From a virus, in the IMG/VR virus record IMGVR_UViG_3300047509_000085, positions 5,620 through 69,619 of that record: a stretch of 64,000 bases of DNA; one strand, given 5' to 3'. Every line of letters starts with the position of its first letter. Within the stretch, counting starts at the first letter, position 1. A model generated the notes under the pieces. It did no database searches, was not told where the DNA came from, and was given only the letters and a program-made list of their open reading frames with translations. A program made the translations under genes and the position numbers. Shown piece after piece: positions 2,056 to 52,400 of this stretch.

Positions 2056-2313
2056 TCACGCCGCCCGCCCCATCGGTGCGCGTTCCGGCGGGTCCTCCTC
2101 CAGCCGCACCACGATCCGCACGTCCCCGCACCGGCTGATCGCCACGGCAGACCGGCTGCCGTCGCTGCGGGCGATGAACGCGCGGACGGCGTTGATCCCG
2201 GTCTCCAGGACCGCGGCGTCCATCTCCGCACGCCAAGCGGCGGTGTCGTCTGGCGGGTCGGGGTCGGCGAACGTGGGGATACGGCGGAGCATGGCGGGCC
2301 TCCCATCAAACAA
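2056..2313 (-). CDS. hypothetical phage protein
   Basis: overlaps the stop of the upstream gene in a tight operon. Confidence 0.45.
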   Translation of the reverse strand: MFDGRPAMLRRIPTFADPDPPDDTAAWRAEMDAAVLETGINAVRAFIARSDGSRSAVAISRCGDVRIVVRLEEDPPERAPMGRAA

Positions 2314-2671
2314 GGATTGCCGGCGGTCGAGGTAGTTCAGCGTCCACCAACCGCCACATATGAAGGCAGTTGGGATGGATGTTGATGTGATCCGTCACCG
2401 GGACATGGAACTGCACCCATGTTTCAGTCGGCTCGGCAAACATCTTCCTAACGTGCTCCATTTCCTGCCAGTTTGGCGTTCGGTTCTTGCGTGATACCGA
2501 CAGGTGCTCCCATGACGTTCCCTCGGCGCCCGACGCAATGACGCACAGCATGCCGCCGTCGATCGGTGATGGCAGAGCAAAGGCGCCGCAGGTTTCGTCG
2601 CCGTCCCAACCGTAGTACTTCACGGCATCGCCGCGCATGCGGTAGCGGTCGAGGGCCGTCAAATCACGCAT
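2306..2671 (-). CDS. conserved phage protein (WEHLSVS...RTPNWQEM...HINIHPNCLHMW family)
   Basis: recognisable conserved motif set. Confidence 0.7.
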   Translation of the reverse strand: MRDLTALDRYRMRGDAVKYYGWDGDETCGAFALPSPIDGGMLCVIASGAEGTSWEHLSVSRKNRTPNWQEMEHVRKMFAEPTETWVQFHVPVTDHINIHPNCLHMWRLVDAELPRPPAILV

Positions 2672-2675
2672 CTGG

Positions 2676-2921
2676 TCAGTTCTTGGCGCGATCTGTTACA
2701 TGCACGATGGTCTCCGGCCCGATGCCGTGCTTGATCTGGTCGTGCAGGTGCTCCTCCGTCTTGCCGCTGATGATCATCACGTCGAGCGGCAGACCAAGCT
2801 CCTCCGCCCTGATGCGGATGTAGGTATCGCCGGGTTTAGCCAGGAACTTTTCGAGGTTTCTGAACGACAGACCGATCAGCAGCATCTGCTTGCCTTCGGC
2901 CTTGATGATGGCTTTGATCAT
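2676..2921 (-). CDS. hypothetical phage protein
   Basis: MIKAIIKAEGKQ start overlapping the upstream stop (ATGA). Confidence 0.6.
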   Translation of the reverse strand: MIKAIIKAEGKQMLLIGLSFRNLEKFLAKPGDTYIRIRAEELGLPLDVMIISGKTEEHLHDQIKHGIGPETIVHVTDRAKN

Positions 2922-3169
2922 GGCGATGCGCCTTCCTGTTGCTGCGGCATTTCCCGCACGACCAGCCTGCCGCGCCGCGTCTCCAGCACCACACCGGCAT
3001 CGGCCATAGCGCCCCGTAGGTGCCGATGCGCGGCGGCGCGGTTGCAGCCCAGCGCAGGCGCCAGCGAGGGCGCGGAGGGCAGCACAGCCCCAACGTCGAG
3101 CGGCGGCAGCAGCGTGCGGACCACGGCGCGGACCTCGCGCGAGCGGGCGTGGTTCGGGTTTACTCCCAT
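2918..3169 (-). CDS. hypothetical protein, possible winged-HTH
   Basis: LPSAPSLAPALGCNRAAAHRHL resembles an HTH; operon packing. Confidence 0.45.
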   Translation of the reverse strand: MGVNPNHARSREVRAVVRTLLPPLDVGAVLPSAPSLAPALGCNRAAAHRHLRGAMADAGVVLETRRGRLVVREMPQQQEGASP

Positions 3170-4866: not shown

Positions 4867-6141
4867 GTGCCGGCTCCCGCGCGCTCGCCACCAAAGTCGC
4901 AGCTTCGAGCCTCGCGGCCATCCGCGCGTCGTCGTCGAGGATTTGCGCGAGCAACCGCAGGCGCGTCGCCATGGCGCGTGCGCGACGGTCGCCATTGAAA
5001 GCTGAGAGCTCGGTGGCGGCGATCTCCCGCAAGTGCGCCGCGGTGTTGGCGATGGCCGCCGCTATCATGACGCGGGCCCGTCGCTATCGATCAGCCACAC
5101 CACGTCGCCGTAGTCCTCGCCGGTATCATTGGCGACCATAGCCATCAGGCGCTCGGTCGAGATGTCCGGCTCGGCGTCCTCAATACGCTCCCACGCCTCG
5201 CGCACGCGGCGCTTGCGGTCGGCCATGTGGACGACATCGCGGCTGCGGCGGCGCGTCATGGCGCGTCCACCGCGCGCAGCGGATCGGGCAGCGGTCCCTG
5301 GCCGTCCGGCTTCAGGATGCCGCGCACGTCGTCTATCGCCTGCATGTTCCCTTTGCGGCGCTTTGCAACGCGCGAGCGGCCATCGCGCAGTTCGGCGAGC
5401 AGTTCCTGGTAGGCCGAGCGCCGCGCCTCCAGTACGAGTATGTCCGCGGCGAGCTTGTCTACGCGCTCCGTCAGCAGTTCGATCATCGGGTCAGTCGCGT
5501 CACTCATCGGTCGCGCCCCCTCTTTACGTTGTATGCCTCGAACAGCGCATCCTCGATCGCATCGGCGATCAAGCGGCGCGACTTCGGGAATATCGGCCGA
5601 GACGGCGCCTGCGGCCCCTCCGCGAACCGCCCGGCGCAACTCGTGCAGAGCGGGATTCGGTCGTAGTACTCGGCCTCGTCGGCCTTGCAGTAGACACACG
5701 ACGGCATCAGTCCCTCCTTGCCGAACCGCGGAACATCGTCGCCAGCAGCCGCAGCGCGGCTGGCGCATCCATCCATGGCGCCGCTTTTTCCAAATCGGCC
5801 GCCATCGCGTCGGCCTGATCGGCGCATAGCGCGAACGCATCGCGCGCAGCTCGTTTGAGCATCGCTAACGCGACCGCCTGCCGGTCGTCGGTTGCTAGAT
5901 CGCCCATCTATGCCGCCCTCCGTTGCCGCGCCTTGCTCGCTGCGACCGCGGCGCGGAATGCCGCAGCTTCCGGGATTAGGTGCCGCACTTTGAATTCCCG
6001 GATGCAGGCCAGGGCGTGACCGCGCCACCAACGACGCTCCGCCCCATGCGCGTCGCGATACTCGGCGATGGCCGCCAGCGCGTCCGCCAGTCGCTTGTCC
6101 CGCAGGATGCGCTGATGGTCGAGAACGTAGGGGCGGGTCAT
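4859..6141 (-). other. run of six small leftward early ORFs (4859-5068, 5065-5259, 5256-5507, 5504-5707, 5707-5907, 5908-6141)
   Basis: abutting or overlapping starts and stops; no function recognisable. Confidence 0.55.
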
Positions 6142-33403: not shown

Positions 33404-34341
33404 GCGGCGTAGTAGACGACGACGAGACCGGCACGCAGGGCAACGGCCATGCGGCGGTATCGGACGACGACCTTCGCGAACTGCTGGCGCAGGAAAAGCG
33501 CGCACGGACCACGGCGGAGCAGCGGGCGGCAACGGAGCGCGAAGCCCGCGCCCGGGCCGAACGGGACCGCGACGAAGCCCGCGGCCAGGCGACATCGGCC
33601 ACCGATCAGCGCTGGGTGGCGGAGGAGCAGAGCCTGGAGGCGGGGCTGGCGGCGGCCGAAAGCGAAGCCGAGGCGCTGGAACACCGCATTGCGCAACTGA
33701 ACGCCGACGGCTCGTTTGCCGAGGCGGCCAAGGCGTCGCGGGCGCTGGCGCGGGCCGAGGCGACAATCGGGCTGATCGGGCAGAAGAAGGAATGGCTCGC
33801 CCAGGCCAAGGAGATGGCAAAGCAGCCGCCACCGCCGGAACGGACGGAGCGGCGTGCGGGTCTCGACCTGTCGGGCTACTCGGCCAAGCAGCGCCGCTGG
33901 ATCGAGGATCACCCGGAATACACGCAGATGGACGCGGCCGGCGAGCGGTTCCGCGCCCGAGTCGCTGCGGCGCACTACTCCGCCATGGCTGACAACATCC
34001 CCATCGATTCGGAGGATTACTTCTCTCACATCGAAAGTCAGAGTGCGACGGGATCACGGCGCCAGCGCGAGGTGGATGTTGATGAGGGCGACGATCCGCC
34101 GCCGCGCGTGCAGCGGCGCGATGCTGGCGGAGCATTGCCGGTAACTCGACGCGCTCCTGGTGGCAACGGTGCGAGGTCAGGAGAAGTTAGACTGAGCCCG
34201 GAACAAAGGGAGGCCGCCGATTTTACGATGCCTGATGTTCCGATCGACGATTACGAACTGAATGGCATCCGCCAGCCGGGACGTTATCGAAAGTATGCCC
34301 AGCTTCATGCGAAACTCAAAGGAGAGGGACGCTTGAACTAA
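33400..34341 (+). CDS. capsid scaffolding protein
   Basis: acidic coiled-coil, AAHY...DSEDYF, VRLSPEQREAA; position before capsid genes. Confidence 0.75.
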   Translation: MSGVVDDDETGTQGNGHAAVSDDDLRELLAQEKRARTTAEQRAATEREARARAERDRDEARGQATSATDQRWVAEEQSLEAGLAAAESEAEALEHRIAQLNADGSFAEAAKASRALARAEATIGLIGQKKEWLAQAKEMAKQPPPPERTERRAGLDLSGYSAKQRRWIEDHPEYTQMDAAGERFRARVAAAHYSAMADNIPIDSEDYFSHIESQSATGSRRQREVDVDEGDDPPPRVQRRDAGGALPVTRRAPGGNGARSGEVRLSPEQREAADFTMPDVPIDDYELNGIRQPGRYRKYAQLHAKLKGEGRLN

Positions 34342-34364: not shown

Positions 34365-34482
34365 TCTGTGGTGCGGCGCGGTGCGGTCAGGTTAGGTGAG
34401 GCGCGCTGTGGTGGGGTGAGCCGAGGCATGGTGCGGCAATGTATGGAGAGTGGCGGCAGGGGTTATGCTCTTGCCGCCATTC
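34365..34482 (+). ncRNA. orphan GGY-NN pentamer array with 3' hairpin (putative gapped guide RNA)
   Basis: 15 in-phase pentamers 34370-34444, 12 starting GGC/GGT; hairpin 34448-34482. Confidence 0.8.
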
Positions 34483-35939: not shown

Positions 35940-36848
35940 ATGGCAATCAACAGATCCCAAATCCGTGACTTCCTGCTGCCGGGTCTGGCAGACATCGAAG
36001 GCAAGTATCCGCAGATACCCACGCGCTGGCGCGAGTTCCTGGCGACGGGGACGAGTAAGATGGCGCTCGAACGCATCGCCGAGGCCCGCTACACGGGTCT
36101 CGCGCAGCTCAAGAGCGAGGGCAGCGCCACGACGTTCGACAATGCGCCGGGCGAGCGGTTTGTCTGGAACATCGAGCACAAGACCATCGGGCTCGGGTTC
36201 GCGATCACGGCGGAAGCGCTGGAGGACAATCTCTACAAGGACCAGTTCAATCCGCAGAGCATGGGGTTGCTGGAGTCCTTCGCGCAGACCAAGGAGATTT
36301 TGAACCATCAGTTGCTGAACAGCGCCGGCACATTCAATCCACTGTTCGGCGGCGATGGGCAGGCGTTGCTGTCGACTGCGCATCCGATCGACAACGGCAC
36401 CTACGCCAACCGGCCGGCGGTGGACCTGGACTTCAACGAGGCGGCCGTGGAAACCGCGCTGAACCAGATCAGGCAGTTCCCCGATCAGGCTGGGCTGCTG
36501 TCGATGAGCCGCGGGCTAAAGGTCATCGTGCCGCTGGCGCTGCAGTGGCAGGCGGAACGGCTGTTCAAGACAGAACTGCGGGTTGGCACGGCGAACAACG
36601 ATGTGTCGGCGATCCTTTCGTCAGGAGCCTTGCCCGAAGGGTTCGCAGTCAGCGAATTTCTGACGAGCAACTTCAGCTGGTTTATTACCACTAACGTTAA
36701 GGGGTTAGTGTACTACGAACGCGCGGCGTATGAAATGGACCTCCAAGTCGATCCCACAACCGGCAACCTACTCGTTATTGGACGGGAACGATATGGAAGC
36801 GGAATAAAGAACCCTCGCGGAATTTGGGGAACAATGCCGACTTCGTGA
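35940..36848 (+). CDS. major capsid protein
   Basis: MAINRSQIRDFLLPGL...GDGQALLSTAHP...RERYG..PRGIWG, resembling HTVC010P-like podovirus MCPs. Confidence 0.9.
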   Translation: MAINRSQIRDFLLPGLADIEGKYPQIPTRWREFLATGTSKMALERIAEARYTGLAQLKSEGSATTFDNAPGERFVWNIEHKTIGLGFAITAEALEDNLYKDQFNPQSMGLLESFAQTKEILNHQLLNSAGTFNPLFGGDGQALLSTAHPIDNGTYANRPAVDLDFNEAAVETALNQIRQFPDQAGLLSMSRGLKVIVPLALQWQAERLFKTELRVGTANNDVSAILSSGALPEGFAVSEFLTSNFSWFITTNVKGLVYYERAAYEMDLQVDPTTGNLLVIGRERYGSGIKNPRGIWGTMPTS

Positions 36849-36869
36849 TTACGGAACAGGAATAACCCC

Positions 36870-37316
36870 ATGGCAGGACCAGGAACCAACGTCGGCGGCC
36901 CGCTGCTTGTCGGCTCGACCGCCGCCAACTCCGGCAGCACGCTGCTCAACCAGACGGTGACGCTCGTCGCCAGCACCACCAATGCGGTGTCGGCGACCAT
37001 GACCGTGCCGCCCAACACGCAGATCGTGGATTTCACCATCGACACGACGACCGCCTGGAACAGCGCCACGTCCGACACGCTCACCATCGGCACCGTGGCC
37101 GGCGGCACGCAGTACGTCGGGGCCATCGACACCAAGGCGGCTGCCAGCAGGCTTCGCCCGACCTACACCGGGCCGCAACTGCTCGCGATGTCGAACACCG
37201 CCGGCAACACGGCGGTTGTCGTCACGGTGACGCCGGTCGGTAGCGCGGCGGCCGGCAACACCATCGTCACGATGTTCTACGACATGAACGTCACGCAGTT
37301 GGACAGCAACTTCTAG
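36870..37316 (+). CDS. virion structural protein
   Basis: Thr/Val-rich beta protein after the MCP. Confidence 0.7.
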   Translation: MAGPGTNVGGPLLVGSTAANSGSTLLNQTVTLVASTTNAVSATMTVPPNTQIVDFTIDTTTAWNSATSDTLTIGTVAGGTQYVGAIDTKAAASRLRPTYTGPQLLAMSNTAGNTAVVVTVTPVGSAAAGNTIVTMFYDMNVTQLDSNF

Positions 37317-37318
37317 CC

Positions 37319-37657
37319 ATGGTCGCGCCGATCACCCTGACACAGACCGGCGTCGGGTCCAGCGTCTGGAAAGTGCCAGCGCATAATATGGACCCGTTCT
37401 CGCTGCGGATCGAGATGTCCGTGACCGGCACGGTGGGATTCGCGCTTGAATACACCATGAGCGATGTGACCTCTGTCGGCGGATGGTTCGCCGCGGCACC
37501 TCCTGCGCCGATTGTTCGGCCAACAGCGGTTGCCGGGGCAGCCGGCGCGGCCGATTTTGTCTTCGATTCCCCGATCCGCGCCTGGCGCATCACCGTGGCA
37601 TCCGGCACCGGGACAGTGACCGCCGAGGCCATCCAAGCCGGCATCGGCAACATCTAA
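37319..37657 (+). CDS. virion structural protein
   Basis: operon packing; PIRAWRITVASGTG. Confidence 0.65.
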   Translation: MVAPITLTQTGVGSSVWKVPAHNMDPFSLRIEMSVTGTVGFALEYTMSDVTSVGGWFAAAPPAPIVRPTAVAGAAGAADFVFDSPIRAWRITVASGTGTVTAEAIQAGIGNI

Positions 37658-38029: not shown

Positions 38030-38878
38030 CTACAAGAGAAATCCGCGCTCCCGCATGAACTCTATTGGGTCTTTTGCGCCCTTCTTAGCATTGCACCTTC
38101 GGCACAATATCTGAATGTTCTGCCGGACGTGCGGACCCCCTTTCTTGAGGGGTATGATATGATCGACCTGGAACGCGGTAAGACGCTCCCGACAGACCGC
38201 ACATTTGCCGCGTTGGGCGGCGAATATGGCTTTCACTTCCTTTGCCGTGATCCTGCCGGACGATCGCTTGGCTTGGGTCCGCTTCTCTTCGTTGAGCCGC
38301 TTGATGGTGACGAGTTTCTGCGGGTCGGTAGCGCGCAGATTAGCGAACCATGCTCGGTTGTACTTCCTGACGTGATCGCCGTTCAGTATGCGCCACTCCC
38401 GCATGTACAGCTTTTGCTGTGGTTTCGCTCTTTCCCTATAGGCTGGCTTTTTGGCCTTTACATAATCTCGTTGGTGATAGGCGGCTGCATAGGCTTTTAC
38501 ATGTTCCTTATTAGACTGACGCCATTTGTCGATCTTGGTCTTGCGCTTCTCTTTGTTGTTCTCGCGCCACTCGCGCTGAGTGGCCTTCTCCTTTTCGATA
38601 TTGGCTACGCGGTAAGCCTTTCTGTACGCCAGGAGCTTCGGTCTGTCTTTTGCGTATCGAGCCTTCTGGTAGCCCTTAACTTTTTCTATGTTCTTTTCGC
38701 GGTATTCTTTCGCGTAAGCCTTGACGTGCTCTTTGTTCTCAGCGCGCCAGTCCGACATGCTGAACTTGCGCGTCTCGCTTTCGCCAAGGGTGCGATACTT
38801 GCGCATGTAGGCAGCACGTTTGGCGCGATGCGCGGCCTTGCGCGCAGCTTCAATGTCATGGTCAAAGAGATCAGCCAT
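38030..38878 (-). CDS. HNH endonuclease with a long repetitive basic N-terminus
   Basis: CAVC...VDHIIPLKKGGPH...NIQILCRRCNAKKG. Confidence 0.85.
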   Translation of the reverse strand: MADLFDHDIEAARKAAHRAKRAAYMRKYRTLGESETRKFSMSDWRAENKEHVKAYAKEYREKNIEKVKGYQKARYAKDRPKLLAYRKAYRVANIEKEKATQREWRENNKEKRKTKIDKWRQSNKEHVKAYAAAYHQRDYVKAKKPAYRERAKPQQKLYMREWRILNGDHVRKYNRAWFANLRATDPQKLVTIKRLNEEKRTQAKRSSGRITAKEVKAIFAAQRGKCAVCRERLTAFQVDHIIPLKKGGPHVRQNIQILCRRCNAKKGAKDPIEFMRERGFLL

Positions 38879-45059: not shown

Positions 45060-45776
45060 ATGGCAGAGGAAATCTGGCGGCCAGTCCCCGGTTTTGAAAG
45101 CTACTACGAGGTCAGCGATCTTGGCCGCGTGAAGTCATGCGCCCGCTCTGTGCTCCGTGTGCGTCAGGGGGTTGACGGCGAACTGAAGATACCTGAACGC
45201 ATTCTAAAACCACGCAAAAGTGGGAGTGGGTATTTTTCAGTCCACCTTTACAAGGACGGGTTGGGTAAGAATCACGATTTACATAGGCTAGTCCTCTTAG
45301 CGTTTATGGGCCATTCACATGCCGGAGAAGAGGGTTGCCATAACGATAGGGATAAGTCGAATAACCGCCTTAGCAATCTACGATACGACACGCCCAAGAA
45401 CAACCATGCCGATAAGTACAGGCATGGCACCGCGCTCTTTGGAGAGAAGAACCATCTCGCTGGCCTCAACGATGAGGTTGTTATGGCGATTCGCGCATTA
45501 AAGGGTCGCAAGACCATGAAAGAAATTGGTGAAATGTTTGGCGTAAGACCGCTGAATATTGCAAATATTTTGGCGGGGAGAACGTGGTCTCATCTTGGCG
45601 GCTTCGGGCCGCCGCCTAAACGATGGAAGATTTCAGACGAGCAGGCAGAGGCGATCAGGCAACTCACCGGCAAAGAAGTGCGTAGCGTGACGGCCAAGAG
45701 GTATGGCGTCACTAAAAGCTGCATCCAGCACATCCAACATGGTCGTGTCCGAATGCCGCCGGCTCAGGTGCCATGA
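45060..45776 (+). CDS. NUMOD4-HNH homing endonuclease
   Basis: EIWRPVPGFESYYEVSDLGRVKS...LHRLVLLAF...CHNDRDKSNNRLSNL. Confidence 0.9.
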   Translation: MAEEIWRPVPGFESYYEVSDLGRVKSCARSVLRVRQGVDGELKIPERILKPRKSGSGYFSVHLYKDGLGKNHDLHRLVLLAFMGHSHAGEEGCHNDRDKSNNRLSNLRYDTPKNNHADKYRHGTALFGEKNHLAGLNDEVVMAIRALKGRKTMKEIGEMFGVRPLNIANILAGRTWSHLGGFGPPPKRWKISDEQAEAIRQLTGKEVRSVTAKRYGVTKSCIQHIQHGRVRMPPAQVP

Positions 45777-46372: not shown

Positions 46373-47448
46373 TGCCGAGCACGAGTCAGGCACAACATCG
46401 GTTCATGGAAGCCATCGCCCACAACTCGGCGTTCGCCAAGAAGGCCGGAGTTCCGCAGCGCGTCGGCAAGGATTTCGCCGCAGCGGACCTGAAGGCAGGC
46501 ATCACCAAGACGCACAACGGCAAGCCGATCAAGCGGGCGGACGGCGGCAGCGTCGACGATCCGAACGCCATCGGCGGCATTGCTCCCACGCAGGCAACCG
46601 CCTCGCCGCAGGTGCAGGACATGATGCAGCGGTTCGCCGGCATGCCCGCCGAGCAACTGCAAGAGGCGGTGATCCGCATGGGGCCGACCTCGCCGATGGG
46701 TGCGCTCGCATCGCGCGTGCTCGCGCAGAAGCGGATGATGCCGACCAGCCAGCAACAGGGATTCGCCAACCCTGGCCAGCGTGGAATGCCGCGCGCACCG
46801 ACACCCGCCGCGCAACCGAACCTGCAACCAGGCGCCACCGCCGAGCAGCAGACCGGCCAGGGGCTCGCCAAGTCGCTCGGGCAGATCATGGGGAACGACA
46901 CGGAGACGCCAGCCACGCAGCCGCAGGGGTTCGCGCTGGGCGGGATGCCCATGATGTCGATGTCGCAGGCCGATCCGCCATGGTCGCGCGGGGCGTCCCG
47001 GTCGATGGGCGCTCCGATGCCGACGCGCGGGTTCCTGGCAGGGCCGACGCCAGGACGCGCCGATGCTATCCGTGGTGCGCCGGCTGTTGGTTCCTACGTG
47101 CTCCCGGCCGATATTGTTTCGCACTTCGGGTCCGGCAGTAGTCTCGCAGGTGCACACGCGCTATCGGCAGCGTTCTCCAGCGGACCCTATGGTACGTCGA
47201 TCCCGCATGGTGGCGGACGTGGGCCGCCTCGCGCACCGGCTCCGTTCCACATGACGCGAGGCGGAGCGACGGACACCGTGCCGGTTGAACTTTCGGATGG
47301 CGAGTACGTCATCCCGCCGGAGATCGTAAGCCAGATCGGGCACGGCGATGTGTCCCGAGGTCACAAAGTGCTCGATAAGTTCGTGGAACATACGCGCAAG
47401 AAACTTATATCGACCTTGAAGAAATTACCGGGACCAGTTCGCTCATGA
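46372..47448 (+). CDS. probable internal virion protein with GG motifs
   Basis: MPSTSQAQHRFM, RADGGSV, GRADAI...YVLPADIVS, LSDGEYVIPPE. Confidence 0.7.
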   Translation: MPSTSQAQHRFMEAIAHNSAFAKKAGVPQRVGKDFAAADLKAGITKTHNGKPIKRADGGSVDDPNAIGGIAPTQATASPQVQDMMQRFAGMPAEQLQEAVIRMGPTSPMGALASRVLAQKRMMPTSQQQGFANPGQRGMPRAPTPAAQPNLQPGATAEQQTGQGLAKSLGQIMGNDTETPATQPQGFALGGMPMMSMSQADPPWSRGASRSMGAPMPTRGFLAGPTPGRADAIRGAPAVGSYVLPADIVSHFGSGSSLAGAHALSAAFSSGPYGTSIPHGGGRGPPRAPAPFHMTRGGATDTVPVELSDGEYVIPPEIVSQIGHGDVSRGHKVLDKFVEHTRKKLISTLKKLPGPVRS

Positions 47449-47984
47449 TCGAAAACCCACAGGGCATCCGCAAGGCTGGCATCCATGATTTGCTGCCGCT
47501 GATCGGATCGGCCTCCATCATCCTTGGCGAAAGTGCGCTGCAAGCGTTGTCGCCAGAGAAAGTCGCGGCCCTGGTACAGAGATGCGTGGAGTTTGATCGC
47601 GCGCTAGCGGGTATCATTTCCGGACCAACAGGCATCGAAGCATCAATCGGTCTTGTGATTGAATCCTTCGATTATAGCGACGAGCAACATCTGAGCGTGA
47701 AGTGGCTCGGGGTTCATCCAGAATTTCAGCGGAAGAATCATGGTGCCACGCTGATGAGCTTCGCCAAGTGGGCGCAGGAAATGGTCGGCGTTCCGTTGTT
47801 CATGGGCCTCTCTACGCTCGAAGCGCTGCAAGCGAAGCTGCACTTGTTCGTAAGAAGCGCGCCGCAGGTCGGAGCGCTGTTCTCTTTCGGAGGAGCGCCG
47901 CACGGGGCGTTTAACCAACGCGCTCCGGGGCATGATCCGTTCATGGAACACAAGAAGTCGCGTGCCAGACCGCAAGCCGCCTAG
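47445..47984 (+). CDS. GNAT-fold acetyltransferase-like protein
   Basis: WLGVHPEFQRKNHGATLMSFAK (motif A). Confidence 0.7.
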   Translation: MIENPQGIRKAGIHDLLPLIGSASIILGESALQALSPEKVAALVQRCVEFDRALAGIISGPTGIEASIGLVIESFDYSDEQHLSVKWLGVHPEFQRKNHGATLMSFAKWAQEMVGVPLFMGLSTLEALQAKLHLFVRSAPQVGALFSFGGAPHGAFNQRAPGHDPFMEHKKSRARPQAA

Positions 47985-48435
47985 CTTCCCGGCCGGCGTT
48001 CGCTTCTGCCAAGAGGGCGATTGCCCAGCGTTGTTCGACATTTTCATGGAAGCGCATCGGCTTGGCGGCTGGATGAACGTCAACGAGGATATTGTCCGTG
48101 ACGTGATTGCCCGCGCGACTAGGCGAGACACATTCGCCATTGCGGTCATTCCTGGGCCAACGTGCGTTGAAGGTGTTATCGCTTTTCAGCCGGTCAGGCA
48201 ATGGTACGGGAACCAAGATAGCTGGTATTGGAGCGAGCTTTTGCTATTTGTCAGGGTAGAATACCGAAAGTCTCGCCATGCTTGGAAGTTGCTGCAATTT
48301 GCTAAATGGTTCCAGCATGCAGTGAATGCGCCGGTGATGGTGTCTCTGATGCCAAAAGAGGATTTTGACAGAAAGGAACGCTTGCTGGGGCGCTTCGGTA
48401 AGCGCGTCGCCAGTAGCTTCCTGATCAATGTGTAA
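47932..48435 (+). CDS. GNAT-fold acetyltransferase-like protein (paralog of 47445)
   Basis: LFVRVEYRKSRHAWKLLQFAK; start uncertain; lower GC. Confidence 0.7.
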   Translation: MIRSWNTRSRVPDRKPPSFPAGVRFCQEGDCPALFDIFMEAHRLGGWMNVNEDIVRDVIARATRRDTFAIAVIPGPTCVEGVIAFQPVRQWYGNQDSWYWSELLLFVRVEYRKSRHAWKLLQFAKWFQHAVNAPVMVSLMPKEDFDRKERLLGRFGKRVASSFLINV

Positions 48436-48438
48436 AGC

Positions 48439-48655
48439 GGAGACGGCTGAGATAGCCGCCTCCTCCCTGCCTTACCGCACCACGGCTCGCCTCGCCCCGG
48501 CTAACCCAGCCTTGGCTTGCCACGCCGGACCTGACCAAGCCCGCCATGCCGCGCCACGCCTCACCATGCCAGTCCTAGCCCGGCCACGCCTCACATTGCC
48601 ATGCCTCGCCTCGCCCAGCCCGGCCTCACCGTGCCTTACCCCGCCTAGCCCTGCC
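48439..48655 (-). ncRNA. GGY-NN pentamer array with 3' hairpin (putative gapped guide RNA array)
   Basis: 37 pentamers plus one 4-nt unit from 48655 to 48467, 32 starting GGC/GGT; 10-bp hairpin 48439-48463; begins just after the stop of the RAMP-like gene. Confidence 0.85.
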
Positions 48656-48657
48656 TG

Positions 48658-49260
48658 TTACGCCACTTTACGCAGAGTTGGCTTCTTCCCAGCCAACTCC
48701 GCCCAACGAACCAAAGCAAAACGCCCAAACGGCCCACCGCGTTCTGGCCGATAGTCGCCAAGTCCTAACCGCTTGCCAGATTCTTCCAGTAACTGATGCA
48801 CCGTGTCGGACTCAATCATTGATAAATCTATGTCGATGTTAATGTCGGCGCCCCACGAATTTAGCCGTGGACGGTGACGCATGATCCTGCCCTTGGTGCT
48901 TGGAATGACCACTGGCCTTGAATCCACTTCAAAAGTGCGTAACGGGTTCCCGTCATCATCAATAAGACTGATTTCCTCATCCAACACGAGCACCGCTGCT
49001 GGGACAACAAACTTGAGGGACTTCCGACTGCCGCGCTGCTTGTGACTGCCGCCGGCCTCACGCAACATCCGAGCTACTGAACTTCCCGGAATAAACAGCG
49101 TTCCGTCTGTTCGCTGATAGGCAACTTTTGTCGCTTCCTCGCGCGGATCGCCACGTTTGATGTGGATGGCTCGCGTTGTTTCTTCGACCTCTGATGCCTC
49201 CGCCCAGCGGTGCATCAGCATTGCCGACGTGCCGGATATACTAGCTACGAAAATTGCCAT
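48658..49260 (-). CDS. stand-alone RAMP/Cas7-like RNA-binding protein (Vipr-like)
   Basis: N-terminal strand ISGTSAMLMH, LFIPGSSVARMLREA, C-terminal Gly-rich loop GLGDYRPERGGPFGRF; RBS upstream of ATG 49260; 200 aa. Confidence 0.8.
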   Translation of the reverse strand: MAIFVASISGTSAMLMHRWAEASEVEETTRAIHIKRGDPREEATKVAYQRTDGTLFIPGSSVARMLREAGGSHKQRGSRKSLKFVVPAAVLVLDEEISLIDDDGNPLRTFEVDSRPVVIPSTKGRIMRHRPRLNSWGADINIDIDLSMIESDTVHQLLEESGKRLGLGDYRPERGGPFGRFALVRWAELAGKKPTLRKVA

Positions 49261-49486
49261 GCCTCTTGTCCTTGTGCTTGGATTGATGCCACTGGACACA
49301 GACATGGATGCTGTATGATGTTCGATAAGCCATCGCGAGGTCTGATCTCCGGTGGTCAGGGTGGCCATCACCTCCGCACGAGGTGGTGGTCTCCCGCATC
49401 CTAGCATGACAATCGGCCACGTCTAGCCTATAGTGGCCTCATTCGATCATTCTCGCGCGTCGCGAGCCTCACGTGGAAGGCTCTAG

Positions 49487-52400
49487 ATGCGTGGCATCCT
49501 GCACTCGGAAGATTTCGGTTGGGCAAGCGCACCGCGCGGCAAGGGCGGTGGCGGCACAAACACCTCCACCACGGTACAAAACACGACCCCTCCGCCGGCC
49601 TTTACGCAAGCGTTACAGGGCGCGCTAACCCAAGGCCAAAACGCGGCATCCGCGCCGTTCACACAATACCCCGGCCAGCTTCAGGCGCCGTTCGCGCCGC
49701 AGCAGTTGCAAGGCTTCGGCATGGTGGGCAGCACGCCCGGCATCGCCGCGCCGTATGTCAATGCGGCAGCGCAGCACTACGACGCCGCGACCAATCCCTT
49801 GTGGCAGAACGTCCAGCAGTTCTCGCCGCAGGCCATCAGCCAGTACTCAAACCCCTACACGCAGAACGTCATCAACGCGACGCAGGCGCATTTCAACGAC
49901 CAGAACGCGCAGGCCGCGAACCGTCTTCAGGGCGACGCTGCTTCACGTGGAGCATTGGGCGGCGACCGGGCTGGCGTGGCGCAGGCGGTGCTGCAAGGCC
50001 AGGAGGATTTCGCGCAGGCCCCGGTGATTGCCGGCTTGCAGAACCAGGGCTATGCGCAGGCGTTGCAGGAGTTCAACCAGCAGCAGGGCACGCAGCTTGG
50101 TGCCGATCAGGCGAATGCGTGGCTCAACAGCCAGGCGGCAGCCGGTTTTGGCGGTCTCGGCACCGAGGCGCTGAATACGACGCTTGGTTCCGCCAATGCG
50201 CTGATGGGCGCGGGCGCGCAGCAGCAGGCGCAGGCGCAGCAGGGGCTCAACATCCCGTTCGCGCAGTTCCAGGCGCAGCAGGCGTATCCGTTCCAGACGG
50301 CGGGATGGTTGTCGGGGCTGACGAGCCAGCTTGCCAACGCGGCGGGCGGCACGGCGTCGACCACATCGCCTGGACCATCGCCGTTCTCGCAGGGGGTTGG
50401 TGCGCTGACGGCTGGCGCGGGCGCCATTGGCGCGCTGAACAAGGCAGGGGTGTTCAACAGCACGCCGTCGACCGGCTTCGGCTCGCCCGGCATCGGCGAC
50501 ATCAACTCCACCATCCTGCCGAGCGAGCAGGCGGCAGCAGATGCAGCGGGAGGATTTGGAGCGGGCGCGTCCAACATAGGAGACTTCATACCAGGCGGTG
50601 CCCGTGGTGGCGCCATCCCGCATCGCGCACCTGGCGGCATGGTGCCGGGGAACGACCCGATGGGCATGGGCAACCCGGGCGGTGCTCCGCCTGGCATCGC
50701 GCCCGGGCTCGGGGCCGGCGTCCCGATGGGCTTCAACGGCGGCGTGCCAATGGGCGGCGACACCCTCGCCGGCATGGGTGTGCCGGATGTGTCGGTCTCC
50801 GTCGTGCCGGACGCGCCGCCAGCCGGCCTGCCGTCGGGCGCCAAGACATCCACCAGCGTTACATCGGGCGGTGGTGGCGGCAAGGACAGCATCTTCGGCA
50901 CGCTGCTCAAGACGGCCGGCAACATTGCGGCCGGCGTGTTCGGCGGTCCCGCCGGTGGTCTCGCGGCGAGTGCGCTCGGCTCGCAGGTGCATTTCGGCCA
51001 TGGCGGCGGCGTTCCCAACCGCGCCCCTGGCGGTTCCATCGCCGTGCCGCAGATGCCCTCTGTGGCTGGCGGTGCCGGCCCGGTCAGCGTGAGCAGCTCA
51101 CCGTCCTCGCTGACCGGGTTCGCGCTCCCCCAGATGACCGTGAACGCGGGCGGTAGCGGATCCGGCTCGCCCGACGAGGTGAATGCGTTCCTCGACAGTG
51201 TGGCGAAGGGGCAGTTCCACATTCCGGCCAAGCCCGCGCCGACTGCCGCAGCGCCACCGCCGGTCGCTGCACCAGTGACGCCGCCGCCCCCGCTGATCGA
51301 TCCGTTCTTCGCCGAGCAGGCGGGGCAGTCGAACACCGGCGGGGCGCAGAGCGAGGGCGGCGGCGATCAGGGCGGCGCGCAGGCGCGTGGCGGCCCGGTG
51401 CACGGCTTTGCCATGGGCGGGATGCCGCTGCGCGGGTTCGCGGATGCCGGCGCGGTGACGGATGACCTGACGCCAGATGACACCTACGATACGGAGCCTG
51501 GCGGGCCACCACGGCAGACCATCGCAAATCCGCACGGGCTGCCGACCGTCAGCGATCCATGGGATACGTCGGGGGGCAAAGCTCCGTCCAGCATGGGGAA
51601 TCCGCCACCAGCCAGCGACTCTGCCAAGGAGCGCTTCTTGCAGGGCGTTGTCACGCGCGAGAGCGGCAACCGGAATGTCCCCAATCAGCAGGGGCCAGGC
51701 GGCACGCCGCTTAGCTCTTCGTCTGGATACTTCCAGATAACCGACCCGACGTGGCGCGAAAACGCCAGGCTAGCCGGTGTGGACACGGACAAATACCCGA
51801 CCGCCATGTCTGCGCCGAGGGAGGTGCAGCACCAGGTCGCCGGCCTGCTCTACGACCGGGAAGGCGAGCGACCGTGGGCGGCTTCCGCTCCGGGCGCAAC
51901 CGGCACCGCCGGCCTCGGCAATCCCCCCGACCTTCCTCCGGCACCGGATCGTCAGGTGTCCGACTGGACGCCAGCCGAGCGCAAATACGGCCCCGACGAC
52001 ATCCACATGCCAGCCAAGCCGAACGGGTGGCTCTCGCTGATGGAAGCCGGCTTCGGCATGATGGGCGGCACCAGCCCGTTCGCCGCGGTGAACATCGGCC
52101 GCGGCGCCGAACAGGGCGTGCGCAGCTACCAGAACTACGACCTCGCGGCGCAGAAGCTCGCCACCAACGTCGAGGAAGCCCGGGCGCGCATCAGCGAGAA
52201 CCAGGCGTACCACGACGACACGATCAACACGCGCCGGTTCGGCATCGACACACGCAGCGCCGACCGGCAGCAGCAATTCGCCAACCAGATGTCCATCGCG
52301 CAGTTGCGAATCCAGGCGCAGCAGGCCGCCGCCGCAGCGCGCGGCGCTGGCCACATGACTGAGGCGGAGGCGGAACAGACGCGGGTGCAGCAACTGATGC

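What the first reader, a model, noticed from the sequence alone, without database searches (positions are those of the whole stretch)
48439..49260. Stand-alone RAMP/Cas7-like gene fused to a non-CRISPR GGY-NN pentamer array: candidate RNA-guided system
Seen: a lower-GC antisense cassette in the ejection-gene region encodes a 200-aa protein, and two nt after its stop the minus strand reads GGCAG GGCTA GGCGG GGTAA GGCAC GGTGA GGCCG GGCTG GGCGA GGCGA GGCAT GGCAA TGTGA GGCGT GGCCG GGCTA GGACT GGCAT GGTGA GGCGT GGCGC GGCAT GGCG GGCTT GGTCA GGTCC GGCGT GGCAA GCCAA GGCTG GGTTA GCCGG GGCGA GGCGA GCCGT GGTGC GGTAA GGCAG, then a 10-bp hairpin. The trinucleotide is near-constant and the dinucleotide is variable. 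No cas1/cas2, nuclease or CRISPR repeats are visible in the window. Known: IPGSS-like and C-terminal G-rich loop motifs are hallmarks of RAMP/Cas7 proteins, which polymerise along RNA with a fixed period. Inference: one protomer binds each GGY and the NN bases form a discontinuous guide. This matches my recollection of recently described phage VIPR systems, which I cannot verify here.
Basis: partly seen in the sequence, partly recalled or inferred. Interest (0 to 1): 0.97.

Follow-up and report, generated by a model that had tools for sequence, protein, structure and literature searches.

The report
Phage VIPR locus, kin-aimed guide RNAs
A complete soil phage genome carries a member of the VIPR family of RNA-guided DNA silencers described in 2026: a small Cas7-like protein plus five-letter-repeat guide RNAs, two of which best match sister phages' versions of the genes beside them.

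Summary
A 200-aa ORF (49260..48658, minus strand) is followed 2 nt after its stop by 38 pentamers, 33 of them GGY-NN, then GGAGG and a 10-bp hairpin.

The interpretation also holds. The protein has a Cas7/Csm3 fold and matches the solved SUSP1 Vipr protein by sequence. It keeps the published GGY-contact residues. In 85 of 90 homologous loci a same-strand GGY-NN array lies within 150 nt of the gene.

This is a VIPR system, in print since April 2026, so it is a new member of a known kind. This scan has already noted VIPR 517 times in at least 385 genomes.

Additional findings:
- The host record is a complete circular 69.5-kb phage, and the cassette is an antisense, lower-GC insertion before the ejection genes.
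- No cas1, CRISPR repeats, ribozymes or conserved accessory gene were found.
- A second, solo guide RNA lies 14 kb away (34370-34482, plus strand).
- Decoded by the published skip rule, array units 19-32 match the adjacent GNAT gene (23/28).
- The solo guide matches a sister phage's scaffold gene (23/28) better than this phage's own (21/28). This suggests guides aimed at relatives, each linked to a mismatched own allele. That reading is inferred, not shown.

No RNA data exist.

The parts
48658..49260 (-). vipr gene: 200-aa stand-alone RAMP/Cas7-like protein (P0001)
   Evidence: Translation. ATG at 49260 is the likely start because homologs are about 200 aa and share the same N-terminus. RAMP fold. 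Sequence match to SUSP1 Vipr, PDB 36pp_D. H17, R130, D169, Y170 and R171 align with the published GGY-contact residues H17, R138, D177, W178 and R179.
48467..48655 (-). vrRNA array: 38 pentamer units (33 GGY-NN), starting 2 nt after the vipr stop, with a 4-nt unit (GGCG, 48545-48542) that shifts the register by one
   Evidence: Internal vrRNA boundaries are unknown. Candidates are GGACT (unit 17, 48575-48571) and the 4-nt junction at unit 23.
48439..48466 (-). 3' end of the array: GGAGG unit plus a 10-bp GC-rich hairpin (tail or terminator)
   Evidence: Fold. In the family, GGA is the commonest trinucleotide that ends a perfect run: 56 of 249 runs are followed by it, against 12 of 249 preceded by it.
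49261..49486 (.). Non-coding stretch upstream of vipr, inside the lower-GC insert. It holds a plus-strand sigma-70-like site at 49406-49434, facing the ejection gene.
   Evidence: 10 of 12 consensus matches; a consensus match only. GC profile. No minus-strand promoter-like site was found upstream of vipr. One weak site lies inside vipr at 48842-48815.
34370..34482 (+). Solo vrRNA 14 kb from vipr: 14 units (12 GGY; 34370-34439), then TGTAT, GGAGA and a 16-bp hairpin (34448-34482). It lies in the gap between the scaffold-like gene and the next gene.
   Evidence: (-33.1 kcal/mol, z -3.95). It has the same GGAG-plus-hairpin ending as the main array.
48169..48209 (+). Own-genome site best matched by array units 19-32 under the 1-nt-skip rule (23 of 28). 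It is in frame in the adjacent GNAT gene (EGVIAFQPVRQWYG), with the skipped base at the wobble position.
   Evidence: 2 of 400 or 0 of 400 guide shuffles reach it. It lies about 260 nt from the array.
33964..34005 (+). Own-genome site best matched by the solo guide (21 of 28), in frame in the scaffold-like gene. The homologous site of sister phage L114 matches 23 of 28.
47932..48435 (+). Context: GNAT-fold gene g167, convergent with the array. It belongs to the phage backbone, not the cassette, and is a tandem paralog of g179 (47445-47984).
   Evidence: Model pLDDT 92.7. Foldseek E 5.5e-07 to acetyltransferases. 18 of 40 family members hit Pfam GNAT models. Paralogy: BLASTP E 2e-12. A distant relative, L113, has one such gene directly before its ejection gene and no vipr.

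Best explanation
This is a VIPR (Viral Interference Programmable Repeat) locus in a complete phage genome.

Shown here:
- A stand-alone Vipr RAMP protein that keeps the residues holding GGY in the solved SUSP1 complex.
- A GGY-NN array placed 2 nt after its stop codon.
- A second, solo array elsewhere in the genome.
- Near-universal linkage between this protein family and same-strand arrays.

Inferred from the published SUSP1 work:
- The array is transcribed with or just after vipr and cut into vrRNAs.
- One Vipr protomer binds each GGY, flipping it out and presenting the NN pairs.
- The filament reads double-stranded DNA as NN-x-NN-x, skipping one base per unit.
- Because no nuclease partner is present, it silences transcription rather than cutting.

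Inferred from my decoding:
- At least two guides are aimed at sister phages' alleles of structural-module genes. One target is the GNAT gene just upstream of the ejection genes and the other is the scaffold gene.
- The phage's own alleles, which sit next to the guides, carry mismatches.
- In a mixed infection the system would then silence a relative's late genes while sparing its own.
For: Protein:
- The model has pLDDT 85.6. Top Foldseek hits are all Csm3/Cas7-type subunits (E 7.8e-07). The 34 top VIA-align rows, down to Z 7.1, are all CRISPR RAMP proteins, the best at Z 11.8.
- It matches PDB 36pp_D 'SUSP1 Vipr protein' at E 2.5e-4 alone and 2.3e-8 as a profile.
- H17, R130, D169, an aromatic at 170, and R171 are invariant or nearly so in 53 homologs. 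They align with the published contacts.

Array:
- 33 of 38 units are GGY, far above the Markov nulls.

Family:
- 1435 homologs at E<=0.001.
- 85 of 90 fetched loci have a same-strand array within 150 nt, and there are 303 same-strand arrays against 2 on the opposite strand in 842 kb.
- All 16 NN dinucleotides are used.
- The homolog in cultured Pseudomonas phage LESphi2 has three upstream arrays of 9-11 GGY units.

No cas1, CRISPR repeats or Rfam RNA families were found.

Targets:
- Units 19-32 match the adjacent GNAT gene 23/28; 2 of 400 or 0 of 400 shuffles reach this.
- At own-gene mismatches, homologs mostly carry the guide-coded residue: G in 17 of 22 and K in 13 of 22 (my hand counts).
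- The solo guide matches sister phage L114 (capsid protein 88% identical) at 23/26 locally and 23/28 overall, and 0 of 2000 shuffles reach this. It matches the phage's own gene at 21/28.
- A published precedent exists for self-match scores lower than scores to rivals.
Against: - No RNA evidence exists: expression, processing and vrRNA ends are unknown.
- At 38 contiguous units the array is longer than the 9-16 units per vrRNA given in the preprint's main text. Five of the 38 units are not GGY.
- The sequence match to SUSP1 Vipr covers only residues 123-184.
- No accessory (vap) gene is present or conserved in this clade, so the VIPR type cannot be assigned. The supplements that list the types were closed.
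- Targets:
  - Units 1-18 have no match above chance.
  - Exact 9-unit seed scans of the viral and metagenome collections gave only seed-level hits.
  - The sister-phage match exceeds the self match by only 2 of 28 positions.
  - The self matches (75-82%) straddle the 80% calling threshold used in the papers, so self-regulation is not excluded.
  - Over 200 family arrays, self-locus matches were no more frequent than chance overall (11 of 200 at p<=0.05).
Confidence: 0.9

Rival explanations
1. The guides act on the phage's own genome. The filament binds the adjacent GNAT gene and the scaffold gene with partial complementarity and tunes the phage's own late transcription (autoregulation), rather than attacking relatives.
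For: - The best matches in the whole 69.5-kb genome are the genes next to each array: 23/28 and 21/28.
- In the family, 6 of the 14 top-scoring self hits lie within 500 nt of their array, against about 1.5 expected (the expectation is my arithmetic).
- 23/28 is 82%, above the 80% calling threshold used in the papers.
Against: - The published systems showed no self-targeting hits at 80% or more.
- The guide fits homolog consensus residues better than the phage's own at several mismatches, and fits a sister phage's DNA better than its own.
- Silencing one's own scaffold gene would be costly.
- Self matches are not enriched overall in 200 family arrays.
Confidence: 0.2
2. The locus is a decayed or inactive VIPR remnant. 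The long array, with degenerate units and a register slip, no longer yields working guides, and the neighbour matches are chance.
For: - 5 of 38 units are not GGY and there is one 4-nt unit.
- No external perfect target was found.
- Units 1-18 match nothing above chance.
Against: - The ORF is intact, with all contact residues conserved.
- TGY and GGA variant units and register slips are common in the arrays of intact family loci.
- Long arrays are the norm in this clade: the median largest array is 21 units and the maximum is 85.
- The two neighbour matches beat the shuffles.
Confidence: 0.08
3. The pentamer tract is not a guide RNA at all. It could instead be a DNA-level element (G-rich structure, protein-binding repeats, a packaging or replication signal) that merely neighbours a RAMP-like gene.
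For: The tract is G-rich with strong GC skew. No RNA data are available.
Against: - The strand-specific linkage to the gene family is near-universal (303 same-strand against 2 opposite-strand arrays).
- GGY is constant while all 16 NN dinucleotides are used.
- The identical architecture is experimentally shown to be guide RNA in SUSP1.
- The protein keeps the GGY-binding residues.
Confidence: 0.02

Closest known systems
VIPR type II of Escherichia phage SUSP1 (Vipr + vap1 + vrRNAs; bioRxiv 10.64898/2026.04.26.720920 and .720927; PDB 36pp)
   Same: - A small (about 200-aa) stand-alone RAMP protein with the same GGY-contact residues.
- GGY-NN pentamer RNA genes next to the gene.
- Phage-borne, with no cas genes or CRISPR array.
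- Guide matches fall in frame, with the skipped base at the wobble position.
   Different: - The sequence match covers only the C-terminal third (E 2.3e-8).
- No vap gene is present.
- The array is 38 contiguous units, against 9-16 units per vrRNA.
- The tail is a plain GC hairpin after a GGAG unit; a pseudoknot was not examined.
- The predicted targets are sister phages' structural-module genes, not a satellite.
Pseudomonas prophage VIPRs (P. fulva clade in the preprint; here the homolog in phage vB_Pae_LESphi2)
   Same: This is the closest homolog in a cultured phage (31.8% identity, E 1e-15). Arrays lie on the same strand as the gene.
   Different: LESphi2 has three separate upstream arrays of 9-11 GGY units, each with its own tail. 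It sits by the CI/Cro switch with two downstream genes. That LESphi2 belongs to the P. fulva clade is my assumption and was not tested.
Staggered vrRNA arrays (preprint fig. S18 legend; example seen here: Mycobacterium phage Philus)
   Same: The window's array matches Philus-type arrays at about 70% DNA identity. It contains one 4-nt unit that shifts the register by one, like the 4-nt junctions between the Philus sub-arrays.
   Different: Philus has regular junctions every 10-11 units, whereas the window has a single one after unit 22. In this clade both +1 and -1 slips occur irregularly, so the slip may be decay rather than a processing mark. The figure itself could not be seen.
Class 1 CRISPR backbone subunits (Cas7 family: Csm3, Cmr4)
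   Same: The RRM core, thumb hairpin and glycine-rich loop fold (Z 10.6-11.8). One protomer binds per fixed RNA period.
   Different: No CRISPR repeats, cas1/cas2 or other cas genes. The period is 5 nt rather than 6. The guide is non-contiguous. The protein stands alone.

Membership tests
VIPR system | Vipr protein: RAMP fold with RRM core, thumb and glycine-rich loop | tested here: met
   AF2 model pLDDT 85.6. Foldseek top hits are Csm3, E 7.8e-07. VIA-align Z 11.8 to Csm/Cmr subunits over residues 1-198. The G-rich loop GLGDYRPERGGPFGRF lies at 166-181.
VIPR system | Sequence homology to an experimentally characterised Vipr | tested here: met
   PDB 36pp_D 'SUSP1 Vipr protein': phmmer E 2.5e-4 and family profile E 2.3e-8. 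Only residues 123-184 align significantly.
VIPR system | Residues that hold GGY in the SUSP1 structure (H17, R138, D177, W178, R179) | tested here: met
   These align to H17, R130, D169, Y170 and R171 (with the residue list). R130 and R171 are invariant. H17 and D169 are at least 90% conserved in 53 homologs. Position 170 is Y or F (pattern). K33 could not be aligned.
VIPR system | Adjacent tandem GGY-NN pentamer array with constant GGY and variable NN | tested here: met
   33 of 38 units are GGY, starting 2 nt after the stop codon. In family arrays all 16 NN dinucleotides occur.
VIPR system | Homologs of the protein are likewise flanked by such arrays | tested here: met
   85 of 90 loci have a same-strand array within 150 nt. 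The misses are L008 (cut at the contig end), L014, L016, L035 and L090.
VIPR system | No CRISPR array and no cas adaptation genes | tested here: met
   No Cas1 (PF01867) in the genome, with positive controls. No interspaced repeats outside the array. Cas2 and other cas families were not searched one by one.
VIPR system | vrRNAs are expressed and co-purify with Vipr | not testable with these tools
   Only one DNA run holds the stretch and no RNA holder is listed.
VIPR system | Guides recognise DNA by the 1-nt-skip (NN-x) rule | tested here: inconclusive
   In-register matches beat shuffles for two guides: 23/28 to the own GNAT gene and 23/26 to the sister-phage scaffold gene. Both are in frame with the skip at the wobble position. 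No perfect target was found, and binding was not tested.
VIPR type II (SUSP1 / P. fulva) | Accessory gene vap1 next to vipr; separate vrRNAs of 9-16 units, each with a conserved tail | tested here: not met
   No neighbouring gene family is shared by more than 16 of 91 loci, and none includes the window. The window's array is 38 contiguous units. The type definitions are in supplements that were closed.
Ribozyme-interspersed VIPR arrays (types I and V in the fig. S19 legend) | Hammerhead ribozymes between vrRNAs | tested here: inconclusive
   No Rfam family reached its gathering score in the window, and no hammerhead was found in the 13 loci scanned (11 family loci plus LESphi2 and Philus). Divergent ribozymes could be missed.
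CRISPR-Cas class 1 | CRISPR repeat-spacer array plus several cas genes | tested here: not met
   There is a single RAMP gene with no partner genes.

The most novel reading that the evidence does not exclude
Each guide sits next to the phage's own mismatched ('immune') allele of the gene it targets in relatives. Guide and immune allele would then form a linked poison-antidote pair. In mixed infections the VIPR filament silences the sister phage's scaffold gene, and its GNAT gene with the ejection genes downstream of it. Only recombinants that inherit the linked guide-plus-allele block escape, which would amount to an RNA-guided form of marker exclusion or gene drive among phages. My family scan adds that high-scoring self matches cluster near arrays (6 of 14 within 500 nt). 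Two earlier notes of this scan on other genomes report neighbour-allele guides.
Probability: 0.3. Interest if true: 0.7.

Novelty: new member of a known kind. Interest (0 to 1): 0.4.

Why it matters
As a VIPR locus it is ordinary. The class, its code and its role in conflict between phages are in print, and this scan has met it hundreds of times.

Its value lies in three details.
- It is a clean, complete, non-enterobacterial example from a large, unannotated clade (1435 homologs). The clade has no accessory gene and has arrays far longer than the characterised 9-16 units, which raises the question of how long arrays are processed or loaded.
- It shows a VIPR-positive phage that also keeps a distant solo guide inside its late operon.
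- Both decodable guides point at relatives' alleles of the genes beside them.

If that linkage is general, VIPR cassettes behave as selfish, recombination-linked exclusion modules. This can be tested with reporter assays and co-infections.

Tried and rejected
Family libraries
- Pfam and PADLOC have no model for the protein. PHROGs gives only an unnamed family (phrog_4652, E 4.9e-15).

Searches for targets
- Full-length guides against the own genome gave nothing above shuffles.
- Guides against the 90 family loci gave nothing above the null.
- Exact 9-unit seeds:
  - Solo-guide units 6-14 in viral contigs gave 5 hits that match the seed only (19-22 of 28).
  - Array units 1-9 gave 0 hits.
  - Array units 24-32 gave 0 hits in viral contigs and 15 in metagenome contigs, all seed-only.
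- Single-protein locus searches with g167 and with the scaffold protein found no relatives.
- The word-index protein search found no homolog of g167 except itself. The exhaustive HMMER search then found 213.
- The sister record behind L114 is a 34%-complete fragment with no vipr or g167 match, which shows nothing.
- The scaffold protein has no match in the cultured-phage collection.

General test of self-matching in the family
- Overall this was negative: 11 of 200 arrays at p<=0.05.
- Best hits within 500 nt of the array numbered 29 of 200, against 21.2 expected.
- Only the top-score subset is enriched, and that split was chosen after seeing the data.

RNA evidence
- No RNA holder is listed; one DNA run is listed that may be the source sample.
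- No Rfam family was found in the window. In the 13 loci scanned there was only an unrelated int-alpA hit.

Promoters and terminators
- No minus-strand promoter-like site was found upstream of vipr, and no canonical terminator call was made at either hairpin.

Other points
- I considered GGA units or the 4-nt unit as vrRNA boundaries. The family data support GGA as a run-ender, but boundaries cannot be set without RNA ends.
- Complex prediction was not run, because a filament that needs RNA is a poor case for it.
- The VIPR type could not be assigned because supplements are closed. They may list this clade, its type and its targets.
Full report
Observation.
- An ORF from ATG 49260 to TAA 48660-48658 gives 200 residues.
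- Two bases later, 38 units begin. Units 1-22 are pentamers (48655-48546), unit 23 is the 4-nt GGCG (48545-48542), and units 24-38 are pentamers in a register shifted by one (48541-48467).
- 33 of the 38 units start with GGY. The others are TGTGA, GGACT, GCCAA, GCCGG and GCCGT.
- A GGAGG unit and a 10-bp hairpin with a 5-nt loop follow (48466-48439).
- The best strict-register 38-unit window holds 22 GGY. The maximum was 10 in 30 Markov simulations of the window and 14 in 200 simulations with the array's own composition.
- Tandem Repeats Finder sees only multiples of 5 (periods 10, 15, 20 and 35).
- The stretch from about 47300 to 49550 has GC 0.53-0.60 (vipr and the sequence upstream of it 0.53-0.58), against 0.65-0.74 around it.

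Context.
- The window lies in a 69,619-base virus record whose last 127 bases repeat its first 127. The record is classed as having direct terminal repeats and as 100% complete.
- The genome encodes terminase, portal, major head protein, a virion structural protein and an HNH homing endonuclease. These are followed by two tandem GNAT-like paralogs, g179 and g167.
- After the antisense cassette come a DNA-ejection protein and a 2658-aa protein.
- g167 has a GNAT fold: model pLDDT 92.7, Foldseek E 5.5e-07, and 18 of 40 family members hit Pfam GNAT models.
- A distant relative, L113, has the order virion protein, g358 homolog, a single GNAT-like gene, ejection gene. It has no vipr and no array. 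The cassette is therefore an insertion between backbone genes.
- The capsid protein's nearest cultured relatives infect Pelagibacter, Roseobacter and Caulobacter, at 37-42% identity for the listed Pelagibacter and Roseobacter phages. The host is not known.

The protein.
- Pfam and PADLOC have nothing for it. PHROGs has an unnamed family.
- An alignment of 53 homologs gave a model with pLDDT 85.6.
- Foldseek's best matches are Csm3/Cas7 subunits of type III and VII complexes, from E 7.8e-07.
- An independent aligner gives Z 11.8-9 to Csm, Cmr, Cas7-11 and type IV and type I backbone subunits over residues 1-198.
- By sequence it matches PDB 36pp_D, 'SUSP1 Vipr protein': E 2.5e-4 alone and 2.3e-8 as a profile, over residues 123-184.
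- The cryo-EM preprint (section read) names H17, R138, D177, W178 and R179 as the GGY contacts. These align with H17, R130, D169, Y170 and R171 here, all invariant or nearly so in the family.

What is in print. I read three bioRxiv preprints.
- 10.64898/2026.04.26.720920: Results, Discussion, two Methods sections and figure legends.
- 10.64898/2026.04.26.720927: outline and two Results sections.
- 10.64898/2026.10.15.759431: outline, one Results section, one Methods section and passages.
Together they describe Vipr proteins with GGY/NN vrRNAs, one protomer per repeat, recognition of double-stranded DNA with one skipped base per unit, and transcriptional silencing. They also describe seven types, six vap genes, staggered and ribozyme-interspersed arrays, solo vrRNAs, and guides whose self-match is lower than their match to rivals. 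Supplements were closed, so I cannot say whether this clade or its type is listed.

The family.
- 1435 homologs score E<=0.001, almost all unnamed.
- Ten loci came from genome contigs (MAGs of Chthoniobacterales, Opitutaceae, Phycisphaerae, Hyphomicrobium and a Woesearchaeote). Eighty came from viral contigs, kept from 266 confirmed.
- In 85 of the 90 loci a same-strand array of at least 8 GGY units lies within 150 nt of the gene: 64 downstream, 38 upstream and 17 both. There are 303 same-strand arrays against 2 on the opposite strand.
- The median largest array is 21 units and the maximum is 85.
- All 16 NN dinucleotides occur. Perfect runs are most often ended by GGA (56 of 249 after a run against 12 of 249 before it), and TGY units are common variants. 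Both arrays in the window end in GGAG followed by a hairpin.
- No neighbouring gene family is shared by more than 16 of 91 loci, and none includes the window. This clade therefore has no conserved accessory gene.
- No hammerhead was found.
- In cultured phages, the LESphi2 homolog (31.8% identity) has three upstream arrays of 9-11 GGY units.
- The window's array matches staggered arrays in Mycobacterium phages such as Philus at DNA level, and there 4-nt junctions separate sub-arrays of 6 to 11 GGY units.

A second array.
- My scan for 5-nt-periodic GGY found one more site, at 34370-34439 on the plus strand. It has 14 units, followed by TGTAT, GGAGA and a 16-bp hairpin at 34448-34482.
- It sits between the scaffold-like gene and the next gene.

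Targets.
- Full-length guides find nothing above shuffles in the phage's own genome.
- Read through the register slip, units 19-32 match 48169-48209 in g167 at 23/28. The match is in frame with the skipped base at the wobble position. It is the best hit in the genome and is reached by 0 of 200, 2 of 400 or 0 of 400 guide shuffles, depending on the run and mismatch penalty.
- Units 24-32 alone match 16/18, and 1% of 200 shuffles reach this.
- At four own-gene mismatches, homologs often carry the guide-coded residue: G in 17 of 22, K in 13 of 22, and D or E at the residue just after WYG in 7 of 22 (hand counts); at the fourth site, the next residue, D or E occurs in several homologs (not counted).
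- The solo guide's best self hit is the scaffold gene at 21/28. On its own this is not significant (70% of shuffles reach it).
- Sister phage L114 has a capsid protein 88% identical and no array at that place. Its homologous site matches 23/26 locally and 23/28 overall, which 0 of 2000 shuffles reach.
- Scaffold homologs carry the guide-coded residue at own-gene mismatches in 4 of 9, 4 of 9 and 1 of 9 cases (hand counts).
- Against this reading:
  - Units 1-18 match nothing.
  - Exact-seed scans of two collections gave only seed-level hits.
  - The sister match beats the self match by only two positions.
  - Over 200 family arrays, self-locus matches are at chance overall (11 of 200 at p<=0.05).
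  - Six of the 14 highest-scoring self hits lie within 500 nt of their array, where about 1.5 are expected (the expectation and the cut-off are mine and were chosen after seeing the data).

Verdict. The locus is a VIPR system: a new member of a known kind, from a clade with long arrays and no accessory gene, with one solo guide elsewhere in the same genome. Its working mechanism is inferred from SUSP1. The reading that its guides are aimed at relatives' alleles of the neighbouring genes is supported by modest statistics and one sister phage. It agrees with a published precedent and with two earlier notes of this scan. It needs the experiments listed under next steps.

Noticed in passing
window 34370-34482 (+): A solo GGY-NN array (14 units, then GGAGA and a 16-bp hairpin) lies 14 kb from vipr, between the scaffold-like gene and the next late gene.
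   Followed up: yes
window 45060-45776 (+) and 38030-38878 (-): Two HNH endonuclease genes sit in the virion module. The first has NUMOD4 + HNH_3 domains and hits the PADLOC homing-endonuclease model; the second has an HNH/Endonuclease_7 domain. Neither adjoins the VIPR cassette, and their relation to it, if any, is unknown.
   Followed up: partly
window 47445-48435 (+): Two tandem GNAT-fold paralogs (27% identical, E 2e-12) occupy the place where a distant relative (L113) has a single gene. Only the second paralog is matched by the guide.
   Followed up: partly
window 49406-49434 (+): A sigma-70-like site (ATGACA-17-TATAGT, 10 of 12) lies inside the inserted lower-GC stretch and faces the ejection gene. 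It might restart late transcription after the antisense cassette. This is a consensus match only.
   Followed up: no
G000 ends (genome 1-127 and 69493-69619): A 127-base terminal overlap marks the record as a complete, circularly closed assembly.
   Followed up: yes
L075 (1810-12123), L060 (3394-3947): Some family loci are extreme. L075 carries 13 arrays spread over 10 kb, the largest with 74 GGY units. L060 has a run of 99 GGY units (slip-tolerant caller).
   Followed up: no
L112 (Mycobacterium phage Philus, record 36664-37596): The annotated 'hypothetical protein' gene 52 covers a staggered GGY-NN array at its 5' end, so the deposited gene call probably starts too early.
   Followed up: no
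L111 (Pseudomonas phage vB_Pae_LESphi2, locus 2063-3064): A clinical-isolate prophage of P. aeruginosa carries a Vipr homolog with three upstream GGY-NN arrays of 9-11 GGY units, next to its CI/Cro region. All of these genes are annotated as hypothetical.
   Followed up: partly
L063 5567-5607 versus array 5897-5966: Another family locus has a 14-unit array that matches, at score 15.5, the 197-aa ORF ending at the array's start, in frame. This is the same pattern as in the window.
   Followed up: partly
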